Part shown: piece by piece, positions 1 through 49,618 of the stretch | Numbering within the stretch: position 1 is the stretch's first letter | Layout of the letters: each line of letters starts with the position of its first letter | From: Malacoraja senta | Taxonomy: Eukaryota | Direction: 5' to 3' | Assembly: GCA_038087875.1 (NCBI GenBank) | Contig: CM075995.1 | Span: 2,854,001 to 2,918,000, forward strand | DNA length: 64,000 bases | Position numbers and translations under genes: made by a program | The notes under the pieces: generated by a model | Told to the model about the DNA's origin: nothing | The model's input: the letters and a program-made list of their open reading frames with translations, nothing else | The model's database searches: none

Positions 1-322
1 GTCTTTGGTCGCCACCGCCGGAACGCCGGAACGCCACCGCCGCCCCGATGTCGGCCAGCCTCGCGTTGGTAAGTCCTGGCTCTGCCTCCAGAGCCTCGTG
101 GTCGGTCATAGTTGGAGGCCGCCAGCTCCGCCATTAGGCCTCAGAAAATGTCGCATTCCCCCGAAGGAAGAGACAAAAATCATGTTTTCACTCCCCCACA
201 CACATACACAACCCAATAAACTAAAATTTAACTAAAACAGGACAAAAGAAAACAACAACAAAAAATAAGAACAGACGGACTGCAGGCGAGCCGCAGCTGT
301 TCAACAGCGCCGCCACTTCCGG
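1..322 (-). mobile_element. 5' end of a GC-rich non-autonomous LINE-derived element (same class as 14601-15429 and 38911-39797); runs off the window
   Basis: + strand ...ACAGACGGACTGCAGGCGAGCCGC...GCGCCGCCAC, preceded by an A-rich tract, resembles the termini at ~15385-15429 and ~39745-39797. Confidence 0.55.
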
Positions 323-324
323 AT

Positions 325-681
325 TCTGCTTGAAATGCTGTGAGATTGGTTTTGCTGCCTGCACTGCTTGAAGTGCTGTGACAATGGATTTGCTGACTGC
401 ACTCTGCTTGAAGTGCTGTGAGATTGGATTTGCTGCCTGCACCTGCTTGAAGTGCTGTGAGATTGTATTTGCTGCCTGCATTCTGCTTGAAGTGCTGTGA
501 GATTGGATTTGCTGCCTGCACACTGCTTGAAGTGCTGTGAGGTTGGATTTAATGCCTGCAGTCTGCTTGAAGTGCTGTGAGATTGGATTCGCTGCCTTCA
601 CTCTGTTTGAAGTGCTGTGAGATTAGATTCACTGCCCGCACTCTGCTTGAAGTGCTGTGAGATTGGATTCGCTGCCTGCAC
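325..681. repeat. 40-bp minisatellite, left part
   Basis: ~9 copies of TGCTTGAAGTGCTGTGAGATTGGATTTGCTGCCTGCACTC. Confidence 0.95.
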
Positions 682-1601
682 CAATCAAATCTGCTTAACC
701 TTACCCACTGCCTCGAGGATATAAAGTGTTGGATGGCCCAGAACTTCCTCCAACTAAACGAGAGTAAGTCTGAGGTCATCCTTCTCGGCCCCTCGGACTC
801 AATCAAAATGATAGCAGGCAGCCTTGGAAGCTTACCCCACTACTCAAACCTCACGTCAAAAACCTTGGCGTGATATTTGACTCAGCACTGAAATTTGACA
901 AACAAGTCAATGCCGTGATAAAAGCTAGCTTCTTTCAGCTTCGGACGATAGCTAAAATAAAACAATTCCTCCAGTTTGATGACCTCGAAAAGATCATCCA
1001 CACATTCATCTCCCGCCTAGATTACTGCAACTCCCTTTACACTGGCATCAGCCAATCTTCCCTGTCCCGCCTGCAAATGGTCCAAAACGCCGCAGCGAGA
1101 CTCTTGACGGGCACCCAAAAAAGGGACCACATCACCCCGATCCTGGCCTCTCTCCACTGGCTCCCTGTGCGGTTCCGTATAAACTTCAAGATCCTCCTCC
1201 ATGTCTACAAAGCCCTCAATGGGCTTGCCCCCACCTACATTAAAAGGCTTCTTACCCACCACTCCACTTCCAGGTCCCTCAGATCGGCCGACTTGGGGTT
1301 GCTGAATATCCCATGGTCTAGGCATAAGCTCAGGGGCGACCGCGCCTTTGCGGTTGCAACCCCTAGACTGTGGAACAGCATCCCCTTTTCCATCAGAACA
1401 GGCCCCTCCATCGACTCTTTTAAGTCAAGACTAAAAACGTATCTATACTCCCAAGCCTTTCCTGACGTCCTCTGAGTGAGGGCTACATGTATATATGTAT
1501 GTAGTTTGTTTTGTTTATGCTATTCTTATAACAAATGTAAAGCACTTTGGCCAACGAGAGTTGTTTTTTAAATGTGCTATATAAATAAATGTGACTTGAC
1601 T
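682..1601 (+). mobile_element. L2 LINE, 5'-truncated (RT C-terminal region and 3' UTR), inserted in the minisatellite
   Basis: Open frame to 1475 with L2 motifs SRLDYCNSL, LQMVQNAAARLL, HITPILASLHWLPV, GDRAFAV..PRLWN; AATAAA plus (TGACT)n tail; TGCAC on both sides (677-681, 1602-1606). Confidence 0.93.
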
Positions 1602-2045
1602 TGCACTGCTTGAAGTGCTGTGAGATTGGATTTGCTGCCTGCACTCTACTTGATGTGCTGTGACATTGGATTTGCTGCCTGCCCTCTGCTTGAAGTGCTG
1701 TGACATTGGATTTGCTGCCTGCACTCTACGTGATGTGCTGTGACACTGGATTTGCTGCCTGCACTCTGCTTGAAGTGCTGTGGCATTGGATTTGCTGCCT
1801 GCACTCTGCTTGAAGTGTTGTGATATTGGATTTGCTGCCTGCCCTCTGCTTGAATTGCTGTGGCATTGGATTTGCTGCCTGCACTCTGCTTGAAGTGCTG
1901 TTACATTGGATTTGCTGCCTGCACTCTGCTTGAGGTGCTGTGACATTGGATTTGCTACCTGCACTCTGCTTGAAGTGCTGTGACATTGGATTTGATGCCT
2001 GCACTCTGCTTAAAGTGCTGTGACATTGGATTTGCTGCCTGCACA
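1602..2045. repeat. 40-bp minisatellite, right part
   Basis: ~11 more copies of the same unit (mostly the GACATTGG variant). Confidence 0.95.
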
Positions 2046-2103
2046 CAATGATGACTTTTGAGGTAAATTCTCAGATGTTCTTTATTACAATTTGACCACT
2101 CAA

Positions 2104-3169
2104 TCTCTCTATATTAAAATTGTCTCTTTTTTTATGAACAGCAATGAGTCGTCAAGAGGCAGTGAGCAGCAGAACACAACAAGAGACACAAGAAAGAAAT
2201 CTTTAACATTTAAATTGTTGTTATATTTTAAGTCATTCACATTTAAACTTTAATAAATCCTTTTTCCACTTGCCATGCCTGCGTGTTCTTCATCACAATG
2301 GGTACCCAATATGCAGGAATGGCTGCGCTGTCAGAGAGCCACTAAGAGTGCATGGGGGCGAGATTGAGGGGAGATGGACTGAATGTGTGGGGGGAAGGGA
2401 AATGTCAAGGAGCAGAGTGGGGGCGTGAAGGGAGGAGGGGTGACTGAGTGAACTTCCACCACACCAGCCGTGAGTGACACGATTGCCAGCCCACCAGCCA
2501 TGAGTAAGTGAACTGCCGGCCCACCAGCCATGAGTAAGTGAACTGCCGGCCCACCAGCTGTACGTGACTGAAGTGCCAGCCCACCGGCCATGACTTAGTG
2601 AACATGCCAGCCCACCAGCCATGACTCACTGAACTGCAAGTCCAAGAATCCATTCAGTCCACAATGTCCATACTAGTCCTCTGGAAAACAGTCCCTTCAG
2701 CCCACAACACCCATACTAGCGCTCCGGAGATCCACGCAAGGATAGACTTTCCTCCTTCATTGCTGTGATCTAAAAAAATATGAAAATGTTTTAAATTGAT
2801 TGTCCACCCTCTCCCCCTTCTCTATTACAGAGTCTGTCCCCTGTTTTCAGCAGAATTTCTGGCAGTTTCTGAGCTGCCAGCCTGCCAGGCCTGAGTTACT
2901 GAGCTGCCAGTCTGCCAGGCCTGAGTGACTGAGCTGCCAGGCCTCAGTGACTGAGCTGTGCCCAAAAACCCATTCGGCCCACAATGCCCATACTAGCCCT
3001 CTGGAAACCAGTCCCTTCAGCCCACAACACCCATGCTAGCACTCCAGAAAGCCCCCCCCACACTCCTGCCACTGGCCAGCAATATTGGAATTGGTGGAGA
3101 GGTGTAATATTGCGTTGGGGGACCAGTCCTCCCGTGTGGCTGGGACCCAACGGGTCCCACTTAGTCTAG
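2104..3169 (+). mobile_element. Non-autonomous Helitron (3' end clear, 5' end tentative) with internal ~30-bp tandem repeats
   Basis: 3' hairpin GGGACCC-AAC-GGGTCCC (3142-3158) then CTAG|T (3166-3170); possible 5' A|TCTCTCTATATTAAAA at 2104; 3' half homologous to 54521-54820. Confidence 0.7.
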
Positions 3170-3850
3170 TACTTCTTAAACGTTGTGATAGTTCCTGCCT
3201 CAACTACCTCCTCTGGCAGCTCAATCCATGCACCCACCACCCTCTGTGTGAAAAAGTTACCCCTCAGATTGGTTTAGTTTAGTTTTGAGATTCAGCGAGG
3301 AAACAAACCCTTCAACCCAATGAGTGCGCCGACCAGCGATCCCCGCACATTAACACTACCCTACACACGCGCTAGGGACAATTTTTACACTTAAACAAAG
3401 CCAATTAACCTACAAACCTGTACGTCTTTGGAGTGTGGGAGGAAACCGAAGATCTCAGAGAAACCCATGCAGGTCACAGGGAGAACGTACAAACTGTACA
3501 GACAGCACCCATAGTCAGGATCAAACCCGGGTCTTTGGCACTGTAAGGCAGTAGCTCTACCGCTGCACCACGGGGCGCCCTTTACAATTCTATAAATTCT
3601 TTCCCCCTTCACCTTAAACCAATGCCCTCTTGTTCTGGATTCCCCAACTCTGGGCAAGAGACTCAGTATATAGTGCGTCTACTCAATCTATTCCTTTCAT
3701 GATTTTATACACTTCTATAAGATCACCTCTCATTCTCCTGCGCTCCAGGGAGTAGAGTCCCAGCCTGCTCAACCTCTTCCTGTAGCTCTGACCCTCCAGT
3801 CCTGGCAATATTCTTGTAAATCTTCTCTGCACCCTTTCCACTTGACAACA
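3170..3850 (-). mobile_element. CR1 3' fragment interrupted by a V-SINE
   Basis: Minus-strand frame MPRVGESRTRGHWFKVKGER; typical CR1 3' sequence. Confidence 0.8.
3268..3580 (-). mobile_element. tRNA-derived V-SINE (HE1-like)
   Basis: A box GGTGCAGCGG, B-box-like GGTTTGATCC, V-domain GTACGTTCTCCCTGTG...GGTTTCCTCCCACACTCC, (CTAAA)n tail. Confidence 0.88.
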
Positions 3851-4950
3851 TCTATATTACTAAAAGTCTGATCTTGACCGCTTTTGGCCCACTGTGGTGC
3901 GATTTCCGAGAGAACTGTCATTTTTGGCCACCTCGCTCAGAACCCACGTCCGCCTTCCTGTACCAGAGGATTTTTCCCATCGATGAAAAATCAGAGAGAT
4001 ATTAATGTTTTAAACAAAATTTGCCATTCTCTCTGCTGCCCCTGCTGGAGGGAGGGGGAGGGACTATAAAACAAGGAAGTGGTGTGCCTCACTCAGTCTC
4101 TGCAAGATGGAGGAAGCCAGAGGGTCACGTTTCTCTGAGCTCTGAATAACACTGAACACATGTCTACTCAACTGTGAGTCCCCTTAATGTGGTTTGAAAA
4201 TGAAAATATGGTTGGTTTGGGTTGCTTTGGGTTGAAGTTGTTTGGGTGCTTTGGGTTGAAGTTAAAAGGCACTACTACAAATGGTGGTTTTGGTGCTTTG
4301 GCTTGAAGTTAAAAGGCACTACTGCAAATGGTGGTTTGGGTGCTTTGGGTAACTTCCAGTTTGCACTGTATATTGATTTTAGATAAAACGCTACCACTTA
4401 CGGCTGTGATTTTTGGCCATCTTACTGAGTCCCCCTCCGCTCAGCAGGTGCAGAGAATTCTTCCCATCAATGAAAAATAAAAGTGTTATTAGTGTTTAAA
4501 AAATGTTGAGAATCTCTCTCCTGTCAATCACGCCATGAAGGCCACATCTTTTCCGGTGGGAGGGGGAGGGGTTATAAAACCCGGATGTGGCTCAGTCTCT
4601 GCATGATGGGGGAGGGAGAGGTCACGACTGTCTGAGCTGTGAATCAACTGAACACACTGAATGTCTACTGAACTGTGAGTTTGGTGTTTTGTGTGGTTTC
4701 ATGGTGGTTTTACCCTGCATGAAATGGTATGAAGCTGCATTTGAATTTGGTGGCCTTGCACCCTGCTTGAAATGGAATGGAACTGCACTTGAATTTGGTG
4801 GCCTTGCACCCTGCTTGAAGTGGAATGAAACTGCACTTGAATTTGTCGGCCTTGCACCCTGCTTGAAGTGGTATGAAACTGCACTAAATTTGGTGGCCTT
4901 GCACCCTGTTGAAAGTGGTATGAAACTGCACTTGAATTTGGTGGCCTTGT
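3851..4950 (+). mobile_element. Non-autonomous Helitron, 5' portion, ending in 48-bp tandem repeats
   Basis: A|TCTATATTACTAAAAGTCTGATCTTGACC start matches the 5' end at 55965(-); 48-bp unit TGCTTGAAGTGGTATGAAACTGCACTTGAATTTGGTGGCCTTGCACCC at ~4710-4950. Confidence 0.75.
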
Positions 4951-8553: not shown

Positions 8554-9209
8554 ATGAAAATGGTAAATCTGTTTCTAAACAGATATACCATTTTGGATAC
8601 TGTTGGGGGAGATGGCTCATCAGGGGAAGGCAGTAGCAGCCAAGTTCATGGCACCATGGGTGGCTCTGCGGCACAGGAGGGGAGGAAAAATAGTGGAAGG
8701 GCTATAGTAATAGGGGATTCAATTGTAAGGGGAATAGATAGGCGTTTCTGCGGCCACAAACGAGACTCCAGGATGGTATGTTGCCTCTCTGGTGCAAGGG
8801 TCAGGGATGTCACTGAACAGCTGCAGAACATTCTGGAGGGGGAGGGTGAACAGCCAGTTGTCGTGGTGCACATTGGCACCAACGATATAGGTAAAAAACG
8901 GGATGAGGTCCTACAAGGTGAATTTAGGGAGCTAGGAGATAAACTTTAAAAAGTAGGACCTCAAAGGTAATAATCTCTGGATTACTACCAGTGCCACGGG
9001 CTAGTCAGAGTAGAAATAGAAGGATATTGCAGATGAATACGTGGCTTGAAAAATGGTGCAAGGGGGAGGGATTCAAATTTCTAGGGCATTGGAACCAGTT
9101 CTGGGGGAGGTGGGACCAGTACAAACAGGACGGTCTGCACCTGGGCTGGAATGGAAGCAATGTCCTTGGGGGAGTGTTTGCTAGTGCTGTCGGGGAGGAT
9201 TTAAAATAA
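8554..9209 (+). pseudogene. CR1 ORF1 SGNH/GDSL-esterase domain (frameshifted)
   Basis: IGDSIVRG, HIGTND, QDGLHL motifs across ORFs 8554-8949 and 8991-9209. Confidence 0.88.
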
Positions 9210-9210
9210 T

Positions 9211-12200
9211 GTGGCAGGGGGAGGGTGCAAGAGCAGAGAGACAGAGGGGTGTAAAATGAGGGTAGAAGCAATAGGTAGCAAGGTGAAAAGTAAAAGTGGC
9301 AGGCAGACAAATCCAGGGCAAAAATCAAAAAGGGCCACTTTTCAACATAATTGTATAAGGGGTAAGAGTGTTGTAAAAACAAGCCTGAAGGCTTTGTGTC
9401 TCAATGCAAGGAGCATTCGTAATAAGGTGGATGAGTTGAATGTGCAGATAGTTATTAATGAATATGATATAGTTGGGATCACGGAGACATGGCTCCAGGG
9501 TGACCAAGGATGGGAGCTGAACATCCAGGGATATTCAATATTCAGGAGGGATAGACAGAAAGGAAAAGGAGGTGGGGTAGCGTTGCTGGTTATAGAGGAG
9601 ATTAACGCAATAGAAAGGAAGGACATTAGCTTGGAGGATGTGGAATCGATATGGGTAGAGCTGCGAAACACTAAGGGGCAGAAAACGCTAGTGGGAGTTG
9701 TGTACAGGCCACCTAACAGTAGTAGTGGAGTTGAGGATGGCATCAAACAGGAAATTAGAAATGCGTGCAACAAAGGTAAAACAGTTATAATGGGTGACTT
9801 CAATCTACATATAGATTGGGTGAATCAAATTGGCAGGGGTGCTGAGGAAGAGGATTTCTTGGAATGTATACGTGATAGTTTTCTAAACCAACATGTAGAG
9901 GAACCAACGAGAGAACAGGCTATTCTAGACTGGGTATTGAGTTATGAGGAAGGGTTAGTTGGCAGTCTTGTTGTGCGTGGCCCCTTGGGCAAGAGTGACC
10001 ATAATATGGTTGTGTTCTTGATTAGGATGGAGAGAGACATTGTTAATTCAGAAGCAAGGGTCCTGAACTTAAGAAAGGTTATGAGGGTATGAGACGTGAA
10101 TTGGCCAAGATAGACTGGCAATTGATTCTTAAAGGGTTGACGGTGGATATGCAATGGAAGGCATTTAAAGACTGCATGGATGAACTACAACAATTGTTCA
10201 TCCCAGTTTCGCAAAAGAATAAATCATGGAAGGTAGTGCATCCGTGCATAACAAGGGAAATCAGGGATAGTATCAAAACAAAGATGAAGCATACAAATTA
10301 GCCAGAAAAAGCAGACTACCAGGGGACTGGGAGAAATTGAGAGTCCAGCAGAGGAGGACAAAGGGCTTAATTAGGAAAGAGAAAATAGATTATGAAAGAA
10401 AACTGGCAGGGAACATAAAAACTGACTGCAAAAGTTTTTATAGATATGTGAAGAGAAAAAGATTAGTTAAAACAAATATAGGTCCCTTGCAGTCAGAAAC
10501 AGGCAAATTGATCATGGGGAACAAGGTCATGGCAGACCAATTGAATAACTACTTTGGTTCTGTCTTCACTAAGGAAGACATAAATAATCTGCCGGAAATA
10601 GCAGGGGACCGGGGGTCAAATGAGATGGAGGAACTGAGTGAAATCCAGGTTAGCCGGGAAGTGGTGTTAGGTAAATTGAATGGATTAAAGGCCGATAAAT
10701 CCCCAGGGCCAGATAAGTTGCATCCCAGAGTACTTAAGGAAGTAGCCCCAGAAATAGTGGATGCATTAGTGATAATTTTTCAAAACTCTTTAGATTCTGG
10801 AGTAGTTCCTGAGGATTGGAGGGTAGCTAATGTAACCCCACTTTTTAAAAAGGGAGGGAGAGAGAAAACGGGGAATTACAGACCAGTTAGTCTAACATCG
10901 GTAGTGGGGAAAATGCTAGAGTCAGTTATTAAAGATGAGATAGCAGCACATTTGGAAAGTGGTGAATTCATTGGACAAAGTCAGCATGGATTTATGAAAG
11001 GTAAATCATGTCTGACGAATCTTATAGAATTTTTCGAGGATGTAACTAGTAGAGTGGATAAGGGAGAACCAGTGGATGTGTTATATCTGGACTTTCTAAA
11101 GGCTTTCGACAAGGTACCACATAGGAGATTAGTATGCAAACTTAAAGCACACGGTATTGGGGGTTCAGTATTGATGTGGATAGAGAACTGGCTGGAAGAC
11201 AGGAAGCAAAGAGTAGGAGTAAACAGGTCCTTTTCACAATGGCAGGCAGTGACTAGTGGGGTACCGCAAGTCTCAGTGCTGGGACCCCAGCTATTTACAA
11301 TATATATTAATGATCTGGATGAGGGAATTGAATGCAACATCTCCAAGTTTGCGGATGACACGAAGCTGGGGGGCAGTGTTAGCTGTGAGGAGGATGCTAG
11401 GAGGCTGCAAGGTGACTTGGATAGGTTGGGTGAGTGGGCAAATGCATGGCAGATGCAGTATAATGTGGATAAATGTGAGGTTATCCACTTTGGTGGCAAA
11501 AACAGGAAAGATTATTACCTGAATGGTGGCCGATTAGGAAAAGGGGAGATGCGATGAGACCTGGGTGTCATGGTACACCAGTCATTGAAAGTAGGCATGC
11601 AGGTGCAGCAGGCAGTGAAGAAAGCGAATAGTATGTTAGCATTCATTGCAACAGGATTTGAATATAAGAGCAGGGAGGTTCTACTGCAGTTGTACAGGGT
11701 CTTGGTGAGACCACACCTGGAGTATTGCGTACAGTTTTGGTCTCCTAATCTGAGGAAAGACATTCTTGCCATAGAGGGAGTACAGAGAAGGTTCACCAGA
11801 CTGATTCCTGGGATGGCAGGACTTTCATATGAAGAAAGACTGGATAGATTCGGCTTGTACTCGCTAGAATTTAGAAGATTGAGGGAGGATCTTATAGAAA
11901 CGTAGAAAATTCTTAAGGGGTTGGACAGGCTAGATGCAGGAAGATTATTCCCGATGTTGGGGAAGTCCAGAACAAGGGGTCACAGTTTAAAGATAAGGGG
12001 GAAGTCTTTTAGGACCGAGTTGAGAAAGCAGGAGAATGGGGTTAGGAGGGAGAGATAGATCAGCCTTGATTGATTTCACACAGAGAGTGGTGAATCTGTG
12101 GAATTCTCTGCCACAGAAGGTAGTTGAGGCCAGCTCATTGGCTATATTTAAGAGGGAGTTAGATGTGGCCCTTGTGGCTAAAGGGATCAGGGGGTTTGGA

Positions 12201-18540: not shown

Positions 18541-21500
18541 TCAGTATCCCATACCTGCCTTCTCTCCATACCCTCTGATCCCTTTAGCCACAAGGGCCAC
18601 ATCTAACTCCCTCTTAAATATAGCCAATGAACTGGCCTCGACTACCCTCTGTGGCAGAGAGTTCCAGAGATTCACCACTCTCTGTGTGAAAAAAGTTCTC
18701 CTCATCTCAGTTTTAAAGGATTTCCCCCTTATCCTTAAGCTGTGACCCCTTGTCCTGGACTTCCCCAACATCGGGAACAATCTTCCTGCATCTAGCCTGT
18801 CCAACCCCTTAAGAATTTTGTAAGTTTCTATAAGATCCCCTCTCCATCTCCTAAATTCTAGAGAGTATAAACCAAGTCTATCCAGTCTTTCTTCATAAGA
18901 CAGTCCTGACATCCCAGGAATCAGTCCGGTGAACCTTCTCTGCACTCCCTCTATGGCAATAATGTCCTTCCTCAGATTTGGAGACCAAAACTGTACGCAA
19001 TACTCCAGGTGTGGTCTCACCAAGACCCTGTACAACTGCAGTAGAACCTCCCTGCTCCTATACTCAAATCCTTTTGCTATGAAAGCTAACATACCATTCG
19101 CTTTCTTCACTGCCTGCTGCACCTGCATGCCTACTTTCAACGACTGGTGTACCATGACACCCAGGTCTCGCTGCATCTCCCCTTTTCCTAGTCGGCCACC
19201 ATTTAGATAATAGTCTGCTTCCCTGTTTTTGCCACCAAAATGGATAACCTCACATTTATCCACATTATACTGCATCTGCCAAACATTTGCCCACTCACCC
19301 AGCCTATCCAAGTCACCTTGCAGTCTCGTAGCATCCTCCTCACAGCTAACACTGCCCCCCAACTTAGTGTCATCCGTAAACTTGGAGATATTGCCTTCAA
19401 TTCCCTCATCCAGATCATTAATATATATTGTAAATAGCTGGGGTCCCAGCACTGAGCTTTGCGGCCCACTAGTCACTGCCTGCCATTGTGAAAAGGACCC
19501 GTTTACTCCTACTTTTTGCTTCCTGTTTGCCAGCCAGTTCTCTACACACATCAATACTGAACCCCCAATGCCATGTGCTTTAAGTTTGTATACTAAGCTC
19601 TTATGTGGGACCTTGTCGAAAGCCTTCTGGAAGTCCAGAAACACCACATCCACTGGTTCTCCCCTATCCACGCTACTAGTTACATCCTCGAAAAATTCTA
19701 TAAGATTCGTCAGACATGATTTACCTTTCGTAAATCTATGCTGACTTTGTCCAATGATTTCACCACTTTCCATATGTCCCATCTTTACTAACTGACTCTA
19801 GCAGTTTCCCCACTACCGATGTTAGACTAACTGGTCTGTAATTCCCCGTTTTCTCTCTCCCTCCCTTCTTGAAAAGTGGGGTTACGTTTGCTACCCGCCA
19901 ATCCTCAGGAACTACTCCAGAATCTAAAGAGTTTTGAAAGATTATTACTAATGCATCCACTATTTCTGGAGCTACTTCCTTAAGTACTCTGGGATGCAGC
20001 CTATCTAGCCCTGGGGATTTATCGGCCTTTAATCCATTCAATTTACCCAACACCACTTCCCGACTAACCTGGATTTCACTCAATTCCTCCAACTCCTTTG
20101 ACCCGCGGTCCCCTGCTATTTCCGGCAGATTATTTATGTCTTCCTTAGTGAAGACGGAACCAAAGTAGTTATTCAATTGGTCCGCCATATCCTTGTTCCC
20201 CATGATCAACTCACCTGTTTCTGACTGCAAGGGACCTACATTTGTTTTAACTAATCTCTTTCTTTTCACATATCTATAAAAGCTTTTGCAGTCAGTTTTT
20301 ATGTTCCCTGCCAGTTTTCTTTCATAATCTATTTTTCCTTTCCTAATTAAGCCCTTTGTCCTCCTCTGCTGGTCTCTGAATTTCTCCCAGTCCTATGCTG
20401 CTTTTTCTGGCTAATTTGTACGCATCATCCTTCGCTTTGATACCATCCCTGATTTCCCTTGTTATCCACGGATGCACTACCTTCCCTGATTTATTCTTTT
20501 GCCAAACTGGGATGAACAATTTTTGTAGTTCATCCATGCAGTCTTTAAATGTCTTCCATTGCATATCCACCGTCAACCCTTTTAGAATTAATTGCCAGTC
20601 AATCTTGGCCAATTCACGTCTCATACCCTCAAAGTTACCTTTCTTTAAGTTCAGAACCATTGTTTCTGAATTAACAATGTCACTCTCCATCCTAATGAAG
20701 AACTCAACCATATTATGGTCACTCTTGCCCAAGGGGGCACGTGCAACAAGACTGCTAACTAACCCTTCCTCATTACTCAATACCCAGTCTAAAATAGCCT
20801 GCTCTCTCGTTGGTTCCTCTACATGTTGATTTAGATAACTATCCCGCATACATTCCAAGAAATCCTCTTCCTCAGCACCCCTGCCAATTTGATTCACCCA
20901 ATCTATATGTAGATTGAAGTCACCCATTATAACTGTTTTGCCTTTGTCGCACGCATTTCTAATTTCCTGTTTGATACCATCTCCAACTTCACTACTACTG
21001 TTAGGTGGCCTGTACACAACACCCACCAGCGTTTTCTGCCCCTTAGTGTTTCGCAGCTCTACCCATACCGATTCCACATCCTCGAAACTAATGTCCTTCC
21101 TTTCCATTGCGTTAATCTCCTCTCTAATCAGCAACGCTACCCCACCTCCTTTTCCTTTCTCTCTATCCCTCCTGAATATTGAATATCCCTGGATGTTCAG
21201 CTCCCAGCCTTGGTCACCCTGGAGCCATGTCTCCGTGATCCCAACCATATCATAGTCATTAATAGCTATCTGCACATTCAACTCATCCACCTTATTATGA
21301 ATGTTCCTTGCATTGAGACACAAAGCCTTCAGGCTTGTTTTTACAACACTCTTACCCCTTATACAATTATGTTGAAAAGTGGCCCTTTTTGATTTTTGCC
21401 CTGGTTTTGTCTGCCTGCCACTTTTACTTTTCACCTTGCTACCTCTTGCTTCTACCCTCATTTTACACCCCTCTGTCTCTACGCTCACACATTTAAGAAA

Positions 21501-21560
21501 CCCTTTCCCTTTAACTCCATCCTCCACTATCCCATTCGACACCCCACCCCCCTTATTCAG
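18541..21560 (-). pseudogene. CR1 ORF2 (endonuclease and RT) with frameshifts
   Basis: ORFs 20343-21617, 19760-20269 and 18541-19782 carry APE and RT motifs. Confidence 0.93.
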
Positions 21561-22483
21561 TTTAAAACCACCCGTGTAGCAGTGGCAAACCTGCCTGCCA
21601 GAATGCTGGTCCCACACCTGTTAAAATGCAATCCGTCCCTTTTGTACAGTTCCCCCTTACCCCAAAACAGATCCCAGTGATCTAAGAATCTAAATCCCTG
21701 CCCCGTGCACCAGTTCCTCAGCCACATGTTCAGGTCCCGTATCTCCCTGTTCCTGCTCTCGCCAGCACGAGGAACTGGAAGCAAACCGGAGATAACAACC
21801 CTGGAGGTCCTGCTTTTCAGCATTTTTCCGAGCTCTCTAAAGTCACGCTGCAGATTATTCATCCCCTTCTTTCCGACATCGTTTGTGCCGACATGCACTA
21901 CCACTTCCGGATGTTCACCTTCGCCCTTGAGGATTTTCTGCACTCTGTCCGTGACATCCTGGATCCTGGCACCAGGAAGGCAGCACACCATCCTCGCATC
22001 CCGTCTGTTGCCGCAGAAACCCCTGTCCGTTCCTCTCACAATGGAGTCTCCCACTACAATGGCATTGCCTGCCTTAGGCCTTTTTGGTTTTGGCTCAACA
22101 GCCCTATTCGCATCGCAAGCCAGTCCGCCGCTCAGTGTAAACACGTCTTCTGTCCCAACAGCTTCTAAGTGGGTGAACCTGTTCACAAGAGGTACAACAC
22201 CCGGGGACATTGGCATTCCATGCTTCCCTCCCTTTCTCACCGTCTCCCACCTTCTCTCTTCCAGTACCTTAGGTGTAACAATCGTACTGTAGGATTTGTC
22301 GAGGAACGACTCCGTTTCTCAGACGAACCGGAGGTCATCCACTTGCTTCTCCAGTTCCACAACACGGCCCTTCAGGAGCTCTACCTGGATGCACTTCTCG
22401 CATTTGTAGCAGCCAGAGGCACCAGCGGTGTCCTTGACCTCCCACATACTGCAAGCATCGCACTGAATCAGCTTGCCTGACAT
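21557..22483 (-). pseudogene. CR1 ORF1: zinc finger, coiled coil and SGNH esterase, with one in-frame TGA
   Basis: ATG at 22483 gives MSGKLIQCDACSMW...YKCEKC..LEKQVDDLR; in-frame TGA at 22321-22319; then VGDSIVRG, HVGTND, RDGLH. Confidence 0.88.
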
Positions 22484-22925: not shown

Positions 22926-24114
22926 TCAATATTCTCTGCAGTTTTATTTTGTAGGCTCACATGCCCTCGCCCATCTGACTCCTTTTATATTGGTTCACTG
23001 CTAGTACTTTGAGCAATATGCAGTTCCTTGGGGTCTCGTGCTTTTTTTGGCATTTTCATCCATCGTAAGCTACTGGAGCTGATGGAAGACAAAATAGTTG
23101 ATCGTAGATCCCACTTCTTCTCCCAGTGGCTCTCCTGACTCTGACGGGGCAGCGAATCGTACTGCCAGGAGTAGAACATCTGGCAGCTGCCGTCTTCGCT
23201 TGTATCGGAGACCTCTGCTGACCCTGTGCACGCGCCTCATCAATGAGGGTGCTATCAAGCAGCCCTTTACTAGATGCTGCTGACCTGGCTTCTGCAGCCT
23301 GGCTCTGACATCACTCCTCCTGGAGTATGTCTTGTTGGAGCAACCCGTGTACAGGTTCTCCATTTGGAATATCCACTCAGAAAGTGGTATCCAGCCTTGG
23401 AGGTGAATCCCAAACTGACTCTTGCTCCATGGACCTGACTTGCATGTTGGCTAGCGCCCAACTGACGCTGGCTCCGTTCTTTTTCTAAATACACAAGTCC
23501 ACAGTCGCCCCGCTCCCAGCCGGCGACTGTTACAGGGGTATGAGGCAGCCCTTCACCAACCGCATTCCCGCGGCTCTCTATCGGCTTTGCGCCTCGCCTC
23601 TTGCCCTTGCCCATTTTGTTCACGGTGCCTGTGAAAAATCGCAACAGACCACCACAGCAAACGGACCTAAAAAACTCCCTTGGAGTTGTAAAAACTACAT
23701 TCCACTACATTCCACGTCCGTGAGCGCCAATGCGTCTGACGTAATGACGCACATGCGCCCTGACGGGTCTTCTTCACGTAGTCACTCACGTGACTCCGAA
23801 GTAAAATTTTGGATGATCAGCCATGATCATATTGAATGGCGGTGCTGTCTCGAAGGCTCGAATGGCCTACTCCTTCACCTATGTTTCTATGTACCTGTCC
23901 AAATGTCCTTTAGATGTTGTTATTGTACCCACCTCAACTGCCTCCTCCAGCAGTTCGTTCCATATACCCACCATCCTTTACATGAAAAAGTTGCTCCTAA
24001 GATTCCTATTAAATCTTTCCCCTCTCACCTTAATCCTGTGTCCACTGGTTCTTGATTCCCCTACTCTGGGTGAAAGGCACTGTGCAATCACAATTTTAAT
24101 TTTTATTCCCCTCA

Positions 24115-24318
24115 TGTAAAGGCTTGATAACGAGGCATCATTACTTTACTATCTTTATTCATACTGGATCATTATACATTGCACTAGCTGTACGTGGTCT
24201 GTCACAGGAACTAGAGAGCGATCTGTGGGTGGGGAGGTTGTAGTTATACTTGTGATATGGGGAGTGGTTAGTAGGTATGAGGTCACTATGTTAAAGGCAC
24301 ATGCATATCTCATCTACA
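24115..24318 (-). repeat. Gypsy 3' LTR (204 bp)
   Basis: TGTAGATG...AATAAA...CTTTACA, immediately after PPT GGAGAGGAAGGA (24330-24319). Confidence 0.85.
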
Positions 24319-24387
24319 TCCTTCCTCTCCGAAACGACAGGCAAATACAATGGTGACATGGCGACCACGGCTCATGCGCTAGGATAG

Positions 24388-24670
24388 CTAGGCAACATCG
24401 CCATAGCGGTCAGGCGGTTTGACAAGACGTCCCGCCCGGGTTCGCGTCTCGCCATCCACCCTTCCTGCAGGAGGAAGAGGCACCAGCGGGGACAGACGAA
24501 CCTGAAAGGGAGAAACGGGAGGAAACGGAAGAGACCGCGGCACCGAAACTGGAGGGGATGCGGGGCCGGGACCGGGAAGAGCGCGGGGGGGCGAGCGAGG
24601 ACTAGTCGGAGTGTGATGGAGCGGAGGGGGCGAAGGAGGAGCAGACCGAGGCATGTCAGGAATCACGGGC
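24388..24670 (-). pseudogene. Gypsy pol (integrase) Pro-rich C-terminal tail
   Basis: Ends ETRTRAGRLVKPPDRY, the typical Gypsy integrase C-terminal TRxGRxVKPPxR motif, ~60 bp before the PPT. Confidence 0.75.
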
Positions 24671-24671
24671 C

Positions 24672-25400
24672 CAAGTAGATGTCCCTCATTTCCAACATCT
24701 CAGCTCAAAGTTCTTCCATTTCATCCTTCAGGTAGTCGTTCTCTGAGCGCAGCTCCTCCATCTCCTTGACCATCTCCTCCTCCTCATGGACGCCGTCGGG
24801 CAGCTGTTCCTCGCTGAAGTCGGAGAACCCGAGCGAGTTGGTGAGGTGGAGGCGGCCGTCGGACTGCGGGCTGCCCGGTGATCCGGAGCCGGAGCCGGGG
24901 AGGGGGAGGGGGAGGGGGAGGGAGAGGGCCGGCGCCTCGCTGTCGCTGGTGTGGGCCGACAGGTCGGAGCTGCTGTCGGTGGCTCCGGCTGCCCAGCGCC
25001 TGCCCGGGCCCGGGGTGTGGACGTGGCCGTGGCCGTGGTTGTGGGCCTGGGCCCGCGGGCTCTTCCAACGGGCGGCCGCTTTCTTCTTCTTCCCGCCCGC
25101 GGCCGCAGCGGACGCCGCCGGCGCCTTCTTACCCCTGAGCTCAGCCCGCGCTCCCTCCGCCCCGGGCCCGGCACCGGCCGCCTTGCCGCTCGCGCCTGGC
25201 CGCGTATCCTTGAGCCCCGGGCTGTGGCTGTGGGTGTGTCTGGACAAGCGGCATTGCCCCTTCACCCGGCCCACTGACCAGCCCTGCACCGCTGCCTTGG
25301 GTCTGGCCGGCGACGGCTCACGGTGCACCTTCTTCTTCTCGCCCGGCATCTTCTTCTGCTGCTGCTGCTTGGTATCTGCAGTCCCGTTCACCGCCTCCAT
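24672..25400 (-). pseudogene. SOGA1: Processed 5' fragment of SOGA1/MTCL2 (microtubule cross-linking factor family); 231-aa ORF ending at a TGA where Arg is expected
   Basis: [69 protein letters not shown] match the recalled SOGA1 N-terminus ([55 protein letters not shown]); no intron; abruptly joined to Gypsy sequence. Confidence 0.85.
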
Positions 25401-25519
25401 CCCTCACCCAACCCACCGATGCGATTCACTCAATGCAACGAACCAAGACCGATGGGATCCTTGTCTCAGCTCATCTCATCTCATCTCATCTCATCCCATC
25501 CCCGCGTCCTGGTCGGCTC

Positions 25520-25830
25520 AAAGCAAATGCAAAGCTCGGTCCAGTTGCAGATGCCAAGCTCGGTGCAAAGACACAGATGCAAACCCCCCGGGTGACGGTC
25601 GAAATTCAGATGCAAAGCTCGGGTCCAAATTCAGATGCAAAGCTCGGGTCCAAAGACACAAATGCAGAGCTCGGGTCCAAATTCAGATGCAAAGCTCGGG
25701 TCCAAAGACACAAATGCAGAGCTCGGTCCAATTGCAAATGCAAACCTCGGTCCAAAGACACAATTGCAAAGCTCGGTGCAAAGACAAATAAATGCAAGCC
25801 CCGGTCCAAAGACAAAAACCTCAGTCCAAA
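25520..25830. repeat. ~25-27-bp imperfect tandem repeat in the putative SOGA1 5' UTR
   Basis: TGCAAAGCTCGGGTCCAAATTCAGA / TGCAAAGCTCGGGTCCAAAGACACAAA units. Confidence 0.85.
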
Positions 25831-26264
25831 TTACAAATCTCAATCCACAAGCAGTCGGTCCCCTTTTGCTCAGATGTCCAACAACAGTTTCCTTTGTGTC
25901 TTTTTTATATTTTTATTGGAGTGCTGGTGCGATCTATCTATTTCTTGCGATCTCTCTGTTTTCACTGAAACACGCTGGCTGTCTAATGCACCACTCCGCT
26001 CCTGGGAAATACTTAAAGGGATCAGGGGGTATGGAGAGAAGGCAGGTACAGGATACTGAGTTGGTCTACACCTCATGACACATCTCTCTGCACCTCTATA
26101 GGATCACCCCTCAAGGAATAAAGTCCTCGCCTGCACGGCACCTCCCTATTTTTCAAATGTCGAAACCGGGTCTTTGGCGCTGTGAGGCAGCAACTCTACC
26201 GCTGCGCCACCTTGCCGCCCTCTGAGGCATTAAGAACTTTAAAGGAATTAATAATGTGAATGAA

Positions 26265-26670
26265 CTGATAAATAGATTCTTGATTAGTACGGGTGTCGGG
26301 GGGCAATGGGGAGAAAGCCGGAGAATGGGGTTAGGAGGGAGAGATAGATCAGCCTTGATTGATTTCACACAGTGAGTGGTGAATCTCTGGAACTCTCTGC
26401 CACAGAAGGTAGTTGAGGCCAGTTCATTGGCTATATTTAAGAGGGAGTTAGATGTGGCCCTTGTGGCTAAAGGGATCAGGGGGTATGGAGAGAAGGCAGG
26501 TACAGGATACTGAGTGGATGATCAGCCATGATCATATTGAATGGCGGTGCAGGCTCGAAGGGCCGAATGGCCTACTCCTGCACCTATTTTCTATGTTTCT
26601 ATTTTCTATGATTGGCAGCATAGACTTGATGGGCCGAATGGCTTAATTCTGCTCCTATCATTTATGAACT
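26265..26670 (+). mobile_element. Older CR1 tail interrupted by a younger CR1 3' fragment (~26363-26608)
   Basis: Two CR1 tail subtypes; the older resumes at GATTGGCAGCATAGACTTGATGGGCC. Confidence 0.78.
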
Positions 26671-40873: not shown

Positions 40874-43159
40874 TTATTGTGATATAAATTTTTATTAGAA
40901 GCAAACATATTACAATGTAGAGTAACATATTATAATGGAAGAAAAAACTTTTCATATACATCAATCACTCATACATTATTAAATTTATCAATTGTCAGTT
41001 AATTCTGCTTCTAGTGGATTTTTTTATATAGATAGAAAAAGAAAAATAAAGAGAAAGAAGAAAGAAGAGAGAGAAAGAAGAATTACAATATCAAAAAAGA
41101 AAAAGAGGTGGAATGAATAACTTATAATACGTCATAGGAGATAAGTTCGTAGGTTATGAAATATAATTACATCTAATCCTGAGTTCAAGCTTCAGTCGGG
41201 CTTTCGCGCTGGGCCACTCTATCCCTTCAAATAGGCAATGAATGGAGCCCATATTTTAACAAAAAGTTCTTGCTTGTCCATTAAGACAAGTCTAATTCTT
41301 TCTAGATGTAGGGTCTCTGACGTTTCCACAATCCACGTTTTAATTGTGGGGGTTGTAGGGCCTTTCCAGAATTTTAATATTAATTTTTTCCCTGTTATTA
41401 TACTGTAGTCAAGGAAGTTTATTTGGCTTGTTGTGAGTGTTAAACTTTGTTCTGATATCCCAAGTATTATTAATTTTGAGTCTGGAGCCAATTTGGTATT
41501 AACAACTTCAGAGATTATTTGAAAAATATCAGTCCAGTAATTTTTAATTTTTATACAATTTGCAAAGGTATGTGTTAAATTGGCCTCTAGGTGCAGGCAT
41601 TTATCACATATAGGAGAAATATGTGGGAAAATTCTATTTAGTTTTATTTTGGAATAATGTAATCTGTGTAAGACTTTAAATTGTATTAAAGCATGTCTGG
41701 CATTTAACGAACATTGATGTATATGTTGTAAACTTTCGTCCCAAATATCTTTCGTAATAGGATAACCTAACTCATTTTCCCATTTATGTCTATATAGTTC
41801 CATCGGTGGTTCCTCATTATTTAGGAGAATGTTATAAATATAAGCTATTAATTTTTCAGTGTTAGGATGCTTATTCAAACATTCATCAAGAATTTCTGGT
41901 TCCCTAGTCCTATAAACTTGTGTATTGGATTTAACATAATCTCTAATTTGTAAATATCTGAAAAAGTTATTTGAGTGTAGTCCATGATTCTGTTGTAACT
42001 CTTGAAATGACAGAAAGATGCCTTCCCTATAAAGATGTCCAATCCTTTTAATTCCATGATTTTTCCATTGTATAAAACCTCTATCCAATATGGATGGCTT
42101 GAATAGAGGATTATTTACAATGGGAAGACATAGTGGTATATTATTCAGTTTTAAAGCCTTTTTTAATTGTTTCCAAATTCGTATTCCACTATGTATTATA
42201 GGGTTTTCCTTATAGGTTTTTTTATGCAATTTTGTGGTAGCAAATATAATCGAACCTATTTCAAAAGGTAAACAGTCTTCCTTTTCCATCCTTAACCATT
42301 CTGGTTGTTGGTCCGTTTCTTCCAGCCAGAAATTCATGTTTTTAATATGGACTGCCCAAAAATAAAATAAGAAATTTGGCAAAGCCAAACCTCCGTTGCT
42401 CTTTGACTTACATAAATGTTTTTACTTATTCTATGATTCTTATAATCCCAAATAAAGCTTGTAACAATGGAGTCGACTTTTTTGAAAACGTTTTTTGGAA
42501 TATATATCGGAATTAATTGAAATAAATATAGTAGTTGCGGTAAGAAAATCATTTTTATAGCATTAATTCTACCAAGCATTGAAATAGGAAGTGTTTTCCA
42601 GTACTGAATATGTTTGTGTAATTTATTAAGTAAGGATGGAAAATTTTGTTTAAATAAAGAGGTATATGTCTTAGTTACATAGATTCCTAAATATTTAAGT
42701 TTATCTTTAACTATTTTAAAAGGGGATTGTTGTATTGTATTTAAGTTGAATTTTGTTATTGGCATAATTTCACTTTTATTCCAATTAATCCTATATCCTG
42801 AGAACTGACCAAATTGTGTTATTAGATTTAATAGATTTGGAATACTAGTTTCTAACTTTGTAATATATATTAATACATCATCTGCATATAAGGACATTTT
42901 ATTCCTTGTATCTCTAGTGTTGTATCCATGTATTCCTGGATGGTTTCTAACGCTTTCTGCTAATGGTTCAATTGCAAGAGCAAATAATAGTGGGGATAGT
43001 GAACATCCTTGTCTACAACCTCTAGAAAGATTAAATTTGGCTGATAACATTTGATTTGTTAATATTCTAGCTGTTGGATTAGAGTATAACAATTTAACCC
43101 ATGTACAGTACTTCTCTCCCAATTGAAATTTTTTCATTACCGAAAATAAATATGTCCAT
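40874..43159 (-). mobile_element. L1-clade LINE, 5'-truncated (RT and C-terminal zinc-binding region, one frameshift)
   Basis: RGCRQGCSLSPLLF, LYADD, KYLGI, CDKC..LTHTFANC; TSD TCCCCCCCTCTTTT (40860-40873, 43160-43173) at a TTTT/AA site. Confidence 0.93.
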
Positions 43160-43200
43160 TCCCCCCCTCTTTTAAAGGACTTACCGTACACTGTGCTTAA

Positions 43201-43894
43201 AGGGCCTGTCCCACTTACGTGTCATTGGCACGCAAATTACGCGACCTCGTGGTCGCGTTGAGGCGCATGGGCATTGTATGGCCGCGCGTGGCGGGTCCCA
43301 CTGAGAAGCGTGGAGGGGTATGTAGTTGTGCGCGACATCGCGCGGGGCTCCGAAATTTTTGTAGCGAACAAAATCTTCGCGCGCCAACGGCCTGTCACGG
43401 AACTGACGGCCAAAGTGGGACAGGCCCAAGACCCTGGCGCGACGCAACGTCTCACCTTCAACAGCAGCAGAAGCAGGCAAACGATCGCCGAACTTGGCCT
43501 GGGGCTCACGGCCGTTGCGGTCCGGATCCACCCCCACTTCTACTCCCAGAGCGGGGCCAAGAAAATTGAAGATAGACACAAAATGCTGGAGTAACTCAGC
43601 GGGACCGGCAGCATCTCTGGAGAGAAGCAATGGATGACGTTTCGGGCCAAGACCCTTCTTTTCAGACTGAAGAAGAGTCTCGACACGAAACATCACCATT
43701 GCTTCTCTCCAGAGATGCTGCCGGTCCCGCTGAGTTACTCCAGCTTTGTGTCAATCTTCAAATGACGTCACGACCTCCAGACGGCTGTGCGTACGCATGA
43801 AATCGCGCCCGACCTTCGCGGGACCATCGGGGCTCAACGCGACCACGTGGTCGCATAATTTGCATGCCAAGGACACGTAAATGGGACAGGCCCT
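43201..43894. mobile_element. Second Harbinger-like MITE nested in the first; contains a palindromic Penelope-derived unit (43566-43762)
   Basis: ~65-bp imperfect TIRs starting AGGGCCTGTCCCACTTACGTGTC. Confidence 0.8.
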
Positions 43895-48660: not shown

Positions 48661-48897
48661 AAAGCCCCTGTCCCACTTTCCCGAGTTACTCACGAATTCT
48701 CCCGAGTTTCCTCCTTGATTCAAACTCGGAGATGCCAGCCGTAGGAACTCGGGGCTATTTTCTTTACCCGTGGACATTTTTCAACATGCTGAAAATACGT
48801 CCCGACTTACCTGATGCCCCGAGTACCTACGGCTGGCGTTACGAGCCGCTACGAAATATCTACGGACTCCTACGGACTCGCTACGGACATTCTCCGT
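48661..48897. mobile_element. Truncated Harbinger-like MITE
   Basis: TAA|AGCCCCTGTCCCACTT terminus resembling those at 40467 and 43201; second TIR not seen. Confidence 0.55.
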
Positions 48898-48899
48898 GT

Positions 48900-49618
48900 T
48901 TGGTTCTACCTAACCTATCTCCTAAGGTTGAACGCAAACGATCTGATCAGAAACGTCATTATGGTGGAAGTCAAAAAGAACGTAGGTTCAATACACATGA
49001 TCAGGTTTGTGTTCTCAGCCCCCCTTACAAAGCAAACAAATGGGAGGTGGGAACAGTAGTTGAAGTGTGTGGTACCAGGAAGTACATGGTAGAAATTGGA
49101 GGATGTGTTAGAAGTGTGCACATAAACAATATGGTTCCAGCGAGGGATGAACAAGAGCAAAGCACAGACAAAGAAGCAGATCTGTCAGACTTTGGCATTA
49201 TTCTAAGTTCAGATGTCAGAGCAGAATCACCAAAGAAAGTAGACACAAAGGTAAATGATCCTGAACGTGACTCTCCTTTAGACCCACAACCTGACACTCC
49301 CCCTAAACCACTCAGGACATCAGAAAGAGTGCGTAAACCAGTCGTCAAGAGTAAATTCATAAAATTGTTCTTGTTTGTCTAATTTACAAGTTATGTTACT
49401 TTCTAAGGGGAGAGCAGTGTAGTGTGATGGTAACTGTAACTTTAAGTACTGATGGTATGATTTGTGATCTGATATATTCTATATCTTATCAGTCTCGTGA
49501 ATATGTGTGAGTACGCGCGGTGTACTTTTGCAAAATAAAGAAGACCCACACTGGCAACAGCGTGCACTGAAAACCTGTGCTTGTTTCTATCCACATGCTG
49601 AAGCCGTAATATCTTACA
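48900..49618 (+). mobile_element. Gypsy 3' remnant: integrase C-terminus, PPT and LTR (49418-49618)
   Basis: KWEVGTVVEVCGTRKYMVEIGG..RSVHINNM, LRTSERVRKPV; PPT AAGGGGAGAGCAG; TGTAG...AATAAA...TTACA. Confidence 0.85.

What the first reader, a model, noticed from the sequence alone, without database searches (positions are those of the whole stretch)
24110..26075. Host SOGA1/MTCL2 mRNA captured inside a Gypsy LTR retrotransposon
Seen, minus strand 5' to 3': TGTAGA end, ~600 bp UTR-like sequence, a 231-codon ORF plus 11 more SOGA1-like codons after the stop, an abrupt switch at ~24671 into a Gypsy integrase tail (TRAGRLVKPPDRY*), PPT GGAGAGGAAGGA, and a 204-bp TG...CA LTR. The unit is bracketed by a perfect 5-bp duplication CCTCA that splits one CR1 fragment. 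Recalled knowledge: the protein matches the SOGA1 N-terminus, and I recall an exon boundary at ...ENDYLK|DE. Here that point (24726/24725) has no intron and the sequence changes from CpG-island-like to AT-richer. Inference: a spliced host mRNA was recombined into a Gypsy genome by template switching and integrated by integrase, as in retroviral oncogene transduction. It lacks the poly(A) tail and long TSD expected of LINE retroposition.
Basis: partly seen in the sequence, partly recalled or inferred. Interest (0 to 1): 0.92.

Follow-up and report, generated by a model that had tools for sequence, protein, structure and literature searches.

The report
Host gene captured behind stub LTR
A spliced front piece of a skate's SOGA1 gene is fused to the tail of a jumping gene between matching insertion scars, with only six bases where the front repeat should be; ten other insertions share such a stub, one carrying a second spliced host gene, so this family likely picks up cell RNAs through a premature strand jump before it inserts.

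Summary
Confirmed. Window 24110-26075 is a single-copy chimera: SOGA1/MTCL2 exon 1 plus 55 nt of exon 2, spliced exactly across an 18.7-kb GT-AG intron of the parent on another chromosome, joined bluntly to the last 556 nt of a young Gypsy family, within a 5-bp duplication. LTR-mediated retroposition is known. The departure: there is no 5' LTR or PBS, only 6 nt of the LTR start, followed by a 53-nt antisense CR1 piece. A survey found 11 TSD-bounded insertions with 6-27-nt stubs of the LTR start. Some carry the stub inverted at the far end or at both ends, which simple deletion cannot make; in 10 of 11 the next segment is antisense to its source. One holds a second spliced host mRNA piece (DnaJ, three introns removed, antisense). 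Best reading (inferred): the newly primed plus strand leaves early, primes on other RNAs in the particle, lands on minus-strand cDNA, and integrase accepts the short end. The SOGA1 copy has a nonsense change and no LTR promoter, so it is probably dead. No independent reads confirm the junctions yet. New variant of a known kind.

The parts
24110..24114 (.). Target-site duplication, copy 1 (CCTCA)
   Evidence: 5-bp TSDs are the family norm
24115..24318 (-). Complete 204-bp 3' LTR (TG..CA) of a young Gypsy family
   Evidence: 97.5-99% identical to LTRs of 29 other loci
24319..24330 (-). Polypurine tract
   Evidence: PPT-LTR junction pattern has 152 exact matches in the genome
24331..24670 (-). 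Gypsy gag-pol 3' end (integrase C-terminal tail) and 3' untranslated stretch; starts at position 4189 of the 4744-bp family copy used as ruler
   Evidence: Pfam RT, RNase H, integrase order in the family ORF
24671..24725 (-). First 55 nt of SOGA1/MTCL2 exon 2; blunt join (0 shared bases) to the Gypsy tail at 24671/24670
24705..24707 (-). TGA stop where the parent has CGA
24708..25400 (-). 231-codon SOGA1 N-terminal ORF spanning the splice junction
24726..26011 (-). SOGA1 exon 1 (about 610 nt of 5' leader with 25/26-nt tandem repeats, then coding part); 10 substitutions and 12 gaps over 1267 aligned bases against the parent
26012..26064 (+). 53-nt piece of the CR1 LINE RT C-terminus/3' region, antisense within the unit; not taken from the neighbouring copy at 26468-26515
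26065..26070 (-). 6-nt stub of the LTR start (TGTAGA), in place of a 5' LTR
   Evidence: same architecture in 10 other loci
26071..26075 (.). Target-site duplication, copy 2 (CCTCA)
23990..26110 (-). Old CR1 fragment split by the insertion (flanks about 23990-24109 and 26076-26110)
   Evidence: both flanks hit the same CR1 copy colinearly within about 11 nt (L062)

Best explanation
This is a spliced SOGA1 mRNA piece fused to a Gypsy tail and bounded by a 5-bp duplication, likely built inside a Gypsy particle by two abnormal reverse-transcriptase jumps and likely inserted by Gypsy integrase using a 6-nt stub as its second end. Step 1 (inferred): minus-strand synthesis passed the PPT and 340 nt of tail, then jumped without homology onto a co-packaged SOGA1 mRNA 55 nt into exon 2 and copied it towards its 5' end, so the cDNA had no PBS for the normal second transfer. 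Step 2 (inferred): the plus strand primed at the PPT left after 6 nt, copied 52-53 nt of a sense CR1 RNA (hence antisense), then landed on the 3' end of the minus strand. Step 3 (inferred): fill-in gave a linear DNA with TG and CA ends, which integrase inserted. Shown: splice, junction sequences, TSD, single copy, recurrence of stubs. Outcome (inferred): a dead-end copy with no LTR promoter or PBS and a nonsense change; no function is indicated.
For: Precise loss of the parent's intron. 5-bp TSD and TG..CA ends as in full-length copies. Eleven TSD-bounded insertions carry 6-27-nt stubs of the LTR start: window, L058, L091, L114, L148, L172, L194/195, L196, L200, L204, L205. L114 and L148 have a full 5' LTR and an inverted stub as right end; L194/195 is 350 bp with inverted stubs at both ends and no LTR; plain deletion cannot give these. 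In 10 of 11 the segment after the stub is antisense to its source, as expected if a plus-strand primer copies sense RNA; in L172 that source is a spliced DnaJ mRNA with three GT-AG introns removed, so the template was RNA or its copy. Breaks cluster at nt 26-27 (9 TSD-confirmed stubs among 20 elements) with 0 of 6 after nt 25, with 5-11-nt similarity at the two internal landing sites. Mirror control: 0 of 55 elements anchored at the 5' LTR end in a short stub of the LTR's own 3' end. Ectopic landing of longer plus strands is common too: LTR plus a tRNA-like run-through joined to internal sites (391 matches of the LTR-end/tRNA-type PBS pattern across this and related families).
Against: The window's stub (6 nt) is much shorter than the 26-27-nt hot spot and its three junctions are blunt, unlike most sister stubs, so it may have formed differently. 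Tan et al. state that integrase needs 15-20 bp at each end (PMC5131818). The order of steps and the enzyme (RT versus host repair) are not shown. That the capture starts at the mRNA cap is unproven: a contig from a related organism, guessed to be RNA, runs about 690 nt past the matching point (record 19), and the terminal G could be CR1-templated (2 other exact 53-mers). Stub junctions recur at two sites (4 and 3 loci), so some may share ancestry, though their other junctions differ. Post-insertion loss of 5' ends does occur (10 of 100 listed PPT-LTR sites have no TSD-matched 5' end).
Confidence: 0.66

Rival explanations
1. Same pre-integration origin, but host alternative end-joining, not reverse-transcriptase jumping, stitched the stub, the CR1 piece and the SOGA1-Gypsy cDNA together before integrase acted.
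For: A review passage says alt-EJ drives second-strand synthesis of LTR retrotransposons in Drosophila (PMC11092383; the primary paper was not held). Most sister stubs land on short similarities. Full-length copies match the tRNA-type PBS for only 8 nt.
Against: The antisense bias (10 of 11) and the spliced antisense DnaJ insert point to copying of sense RNA from the stub; the window's junctions have no microhomology.
Confidence: 0.15
2. A canonical two-LTR retrocopy inserted first; a later genomic deletion removed all but 6 nt of the 5' LTR and left a CR1 filler.
For: Tan et al. note retrocopies that lost LTR remnants on one side. A near-identical CR1 stretch lies 454 bp away in the same orientation. 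5'-truncated copies exist.
Against: The filler differs from the neighbour at both ends and matches distant copies exactly. 4 of 31 rearranged PPT-anchored copies break within the first 30 nt (3 of 30 without the window; P about 0.001 under a crude uniform null). Inverted and double stubs cannot come from deletion; no mirror-image 3' stubs in 55 elements.
Confidence: 0.12
3. A LINE-made processed pseudogene landed in or beside a Gypsy remnant.
For: CR1 is abundant here and a CR1 piece abuts the capture.
Against: No poly(A); the copy is 3'-truncated inside exon 2; the only duplication is 5 bp and brackets the whole unit at TG..CA ends; the CR1 piece is antisense and at the 5' side.
Confidence: 0.04
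4. Assembly artefact.
For: The locus is repeat-rich and present once in one assembly.
Against: An assembler has no route to a precise splice, a private CpG change and a perfect TSD; the same architecture recurs on several chromosomes with different TSDs.
Confidence: 0.03

Closest known systems
LTR-mediated retrocopies of animals (Tan et al. 2016, PMC5131818; parts 1-4 of 8 of the text read; supplements not opened)
   Same: Partial spliced mRNA replaces the internal part of an LTR retrotransposon; no poly(A); 3' truncation; more than one cellular RNA in one product.
   Different: Their model has both LTRs, microsimilarity at 25 of 29 junctions, LTR-driven transcription and re-mobilisation. Here the 5' end is a 6-nt stub, junctions are blunt, there is no PBS or LTR promoter, and there is one copy.
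Retroviral oncogene transduction (recalled, not from a call)
   Same: Cellular mRNA recombined into a retroelement genome during reverse transcription.
   Different: Transducing viruses keep 5' LTR, PBS and packaging signal and spread; this unit keeps none of these.
Ty3/Gypsy LTR retrotransposons (donor family, 4.74 kb; Mag-like clade label is recalled and untested)
   Same: Tail, PPT, LTR and 5-bp TSD are those of the family.
   Different: The window unit holds 562 of 4744 nt of it.
Amplified capture families in other ray genomes noted by this scan (SUDS3, 4E-T, RBM25, unchecked AI notes)
   Same: Gypsy plus spliced host mRNA in cartilaginous fish or similar genomes.
   Different: Those are described as multiplied to dozens or thousands of copies; this is a young single copy that lacks the parts needed to multiply.

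Membership tests
LTR-mediated retrocopy (Tan et al. 2016) | Intron-less copy of a gene whose parent has the intron | tested here: met
   parent exon ends also seen in contigs of runs X1, X2, X17
LTR-mediated retrocopy (Tan et al. 2016) | Retrocopy replaces internal element sequence rather than interrupting a continuous element | tested here: met
   Gypsy resumes at position 4189; positions 7-4188 absent
LTR-mediated retrocopy (Tan et al. 2016) | No LINE hallmarks (poly(A), long TSD around the mRNA) | tested here: met
LTR-mediated retrocopy (Tan et al. 2016) | Both 5' and 3' LTR present | tested here: not met
   one LTR in the window; 6-nt stub at the 5' end
LTR-mediated retrocopy (Tan et al. 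2016) | Microsimilarity at switch points (usual, 86% in flies) | tested here: not met
   0 shared bases at SOGA1/Gypsy; 0-1 at the two CR1 junctions
LTR-mediated retrocopy (Tan et al. 2016) | Co-transcription from the LTR | not testable with these tools
   no RNA run on record for this organism; no 5' LTR is present to drive it
LTR-mediated retrocopy (Tan et al. 2016) | Secondary re-mobilisation (optional) | tested here: not met
   SOGA1 part matches only window and parent
Ty3/Gypsy retrotransposon (donor family) | RT, RNase H, integrase in that order in one pol ORF | tested here: met
   Pfam on one full-length copy
Ty3/Gypsy retrotransposon (donor family) | TG..CA LTR pair, PPT, 4-6-bp TSD | tested here: met
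   18 of 20 fetched loci have two LTRs, most with a perfect 5-bp TSD
Ty3/Gypsy retrotransposon (donor family) | tRNA-complementary PBS | tested here: inconclusive
   8-nt match in full-length copies, longer tRNA-like run in rearranged ones; tRNA-Leu label is recalled; ARAGORN found no tRNA gene in 36 loci
LINE-mediated processed pseudogene | 3' poly(A) or tail repeat with flanking TSD | tested here: not met
   copy ends inside exon 2 at the Gypsy junction

The most novel reading that the evidence does not exclude
Gypsy elements have a second, PBS-independent route of gene capture: a 6-27-nt nascent plus strand carries the integrase end as a mobile primer onto any RNA in the particle. It yields integrated retrocopies and even LTR-less mini-elements with two inverted stubs that LTR-finding software cannot see, so LTR-made retrocopies are undercounted and some short inverted-repeat elements derive from LTR retrotransposons.
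Probability: 0.5. Interest if true: 0.75.

Novelty: new variant of a known kind. Interest (0 to 1): 0.6.

Why it matters
The capture itself is a clean, young example of a known process. The stub class matters more: it suggests that this integrase works in vivo with as little as 6 nt of one end, that capture need not leave two LTRs or microhomology (so one-sided retrocopies need not be decayed), and that fossil insertions record where plus-strand synthesis stalls and jumps. Both host-mRNA captures seen here are stub elements (2 of 4 stubs versus 0 of 58 sequence-checked full-5'-LTR copies; without the window 1 of 3 versus 0 of 58, Fisher P=0.049), a weak but testable link. I found no description of such stub elements in 10 paper searches; most subscription and older retrovirus papers were not searchable, so it may be described there.

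Tried and rejected
Read support: no RNA holder listed. In contigs of runs X1 and X2 (the two best holders) and X17, the listed pieces show only the parent's intron-bearing form and the uninterrupted Gypsy; none bridges a chimera junction; X24 gave no piece. The tool says such holes prove nothing, so this is inconclusive (other individuals lacking a young insertion, filtering, or an artefact all fit). Pfam found no family in the window's two ORFs and only sub-threshold coiled-coil hits for parent exon 2; identity came. The neighbouring CR1 copy as source of the filler was rejected. The source copy of the filler was not identified. Ten-kb upstream extensions of six 5'-truncated copies found no stub or LTR. 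L198 (stub plus foreign DNA) has no far end in 9.5 kb; L211 (27 nt doubled before a solo LTR) is ambiguous; both were left out of the 11. L254 (LTR, tRNA-like run, then an antisense 361-aa ORF) has no far end in 9.3 kb and no Pfam hit. ARAGORN found no tRNA gene near the run-through matches. LTR-pair divergence left out L053 and L062 (length differences) and the ungapped tail count is uninformative for three rows with indels. Earlier-finding look-ups by stub words, place and sequence returned nothing. Yang et al. 2023 could not be opened.

Full report
Observation. Read on the minus strand the unit is: TSD (26075-26071), TGTAGA (26070-26065), 53 nt of CR1 (26064-26012), SOGA1 exon 1 (26011-24726), 55 nt of exon 2 (24725-24671), Gypsy tail (24670-24331), PPT, 204-bp LTR (24318-24115), TSD (24114-24110). 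Both flanks match the same CR1 copy colinearly within about 11 nt.

The host part. A search of the own genome gave three matches: the window and two pieces on contig C6. Exon 1 ends CTGAAG|GT and exon 2 begins AG|GATGAA, 18,711 bp apart; the window joins them exactly. Parent exon 2 is 99% identical to a skate SOGA1 protein and the named top hits are SOGA1/MTCL2, so the host is likely a skate or close kin. The window ORF matches residues 1-225 of that 1630-aa protein at 85%. The stop is a C-to-T change of the parent's CGA; the frame beyond it would end two codons into the Gypsy tail. Exon 1 differs from the parent at 10 of 1267 aligned bases plus 12 gaps, mostly in repeats. At two of these sites contigs of run X1 show the window's base while X2 shows the assembly parent's, so part of the difference is allelic and the copy is young. 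It is single-copy.

The element part. The tail and LTR belong to a 4.74-kb family with 204-bp LTRs and 5-bp TSDs; the ORF of one full-length copy, used as ruler, has RT, RNase H and integrase domains in Gypsy order. The exact PPT-LTR pattern occurs 152 times. LTR pairs differ by 0.43% on average in 16 copies. The SOGA1/Gypsy junction shares no base.

The 5' end. There is no 5' LTR or PBS, only 6 nt of the LTR start. The next 53 nt are antisense to the CR1 RT C-terminus; they differ from the neighbouring CR1 copy at both ends and match two distant copies exactly. Whether 26011 is the cap site is open: a GC box lies just upstream in the parent, but a contig from a related organism, guessed to be RNA, extends about 690 nt further.

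Family survey. Of the 100 PPT-LTR sites listed (of 152), 58 have a full 5' LTR by sequence, 20 by pairing with coordinates, 4 have a TSD-matched stub (window, L058, L091, L172), 10 have no TSD-matched 5' end, 1 lacks the first 18 nt, 4 run into a gap or contig end, and 3 were not examined (my hand count). Among 55 elements anchored at the 5' LTR, none ends in a short stub of the LTR's 3' end, but two (L114, L148) end in an inverted 27-nt stub of the LTR start followed by the matching TSD. Patterns for an LTR start broken after nt 26 or 27 gave 21 hits in 20 elements: 9 TSD-confirmed stubs, 7 LTRs with a point change, 1 interrupted 3' LTR, 1 83-nt partial LTR, 1 ambiguous, 1 unresolved. A break after nt 25 gave 6 hits and no stub. 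In all, 11 TSD-bounded stub elements. L194/195 is 350 bp with inverted stubs at both ends and no LTR. In 10 of 11 the segment after the stub is antisense to its source; seven land at two internal sites with 5-11 nt of similarity. Other stub lengths were not searched, so 11 is a lower bound.

A second capture. L172 (C1090:120140-120823) is TSD, 27-nt stub, about 336 nt of antisense DnaJ-family mRNA, Gypsy tail, PPT, LTR, TSD. The insert maps to four exon pieces on C1 with three GT-AG introns removed and hits Pfam DnaJ_C. No host-mRNA insert was seen in the 58 sequence-checked full-5'-LTR copies; the link between stubs and capture is weak once the window is left out (P=0.049).

Mechanism. The standard steps of LTR reverse transcription are established knowledge. 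The plus strand starts at the PPT with the first bases of the LTR, so a stub is what a plus strand looks like if it leaves early. Copying a sense RNA from that primer gives an antisense insert, which is what is seen for Gypsy, CR1 and DnaJ. Landing on the minus strand completes a DNA with two integrase ends. In the window the minus strand had itself jumped to SOGA1 mRNA, which explains the sense orientation and the missing PBS. Longer plus strands also land ectopically: many rearranged copies have a full LTR, then up to about 45 nt of tRNA-like sequence, then an internal site, while full-length copies match that sequence for 8 nt only. These steps are inferred from sequence. Host alt-EJ could do the joining (review passages, PMC11092383). 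Later deletion remains possible for the window alone but cannot explain inverted stubs.

Comparison. Tan et al. 2016 (PMC5131818; parts 1-4 of 8 read, supplements not opened, where one-sided cases may be listed) describe LTR-mediated retrocopies in animals, expect both LTRs because integrase needs 15-20 bp per end, and find microsimilarity at most junctions. A history of integration research (PMC11054761, passages only) gives 20-25-bp model ends and 4-6-bp TSDs. This locus works like an LTR-mediated retrocopy but fails the two-LTR and microsimilarity features. Ten searches of the held library found no account of stub elements; the other papers were seen as listings only. Unchecked notes from this scan report amplified capture families in other ray genomes, which makes capture as such unremarkable.

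Limits. Independent reads did not settle the junctions either way (see Tried and rejected). Function is not indicated. Verdict: real, new variant of a known kind; interest 0.6, carried by the stub class rather than by SOGA1.

Noticed in passing
L172 (G000:C1090:120140-120823): Second stub-ended capture: spliced DnaJ-family mRNA piece, antisense, parent at C1:180.94 Mb, TSD GTATG.
   Followed up: yes
L194/L195 (G000:C1:162726389-162726738): 350-bp element with inverted 26-nt LTR-start stubs at both ends, 5-bp TSD and no LTR; looks like a miniature inverted-repeat element but derives from Gypsy.
   Followed up: partly
L074, L093, L101, L108, L175, L177, L228-L263: Many rearranged Gypsy copies of this and related families carry a tRNA-like run of up to about 45 nt after the 5' LTR, joined to ectopic internal sites; 391 and 177 pattern matches.
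   Followed up: partly
L254/L264 (G000:C1:144.956 Mb): LTR plus tRNA-like run followed by an antisense 361-aa ORF and leader that resembles a LINE-1 ORF1 (recalled; no Pfam hit); no far LTR end in 9.3 kb.
   Followed up: partly
L223 (G000:C1:195.307 Mb) and L200 (C10:22.75 Mb): Short fold-back insertions with LTR starts at both ends and a 5-bp TSD.
   Followed up: no
L005 (G000:C9:20.91 Mb): 1.8-kb copy with an inverted gag piece that shares a rare LTR variant with the window's LTR.
   Followed up: partly
L198/L216 (G000:C6:57.40 Mb): 26-nt stub followed by unrelated DNA, no far end found in 9.5 kb.
   Followed up: partly
window 25510-25840: 25/26-nt tandem repeats in the SOGA1 5' leader, also in the parent, with one unit of difference.
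   Followed up: no
window 18541-22318 and 9205-11557: Long, fairly intact CR1 LINE copies; further LINE-like and Gypsy-like ORFs at 41219-43221 and 48663-49382.
   Followed up: no
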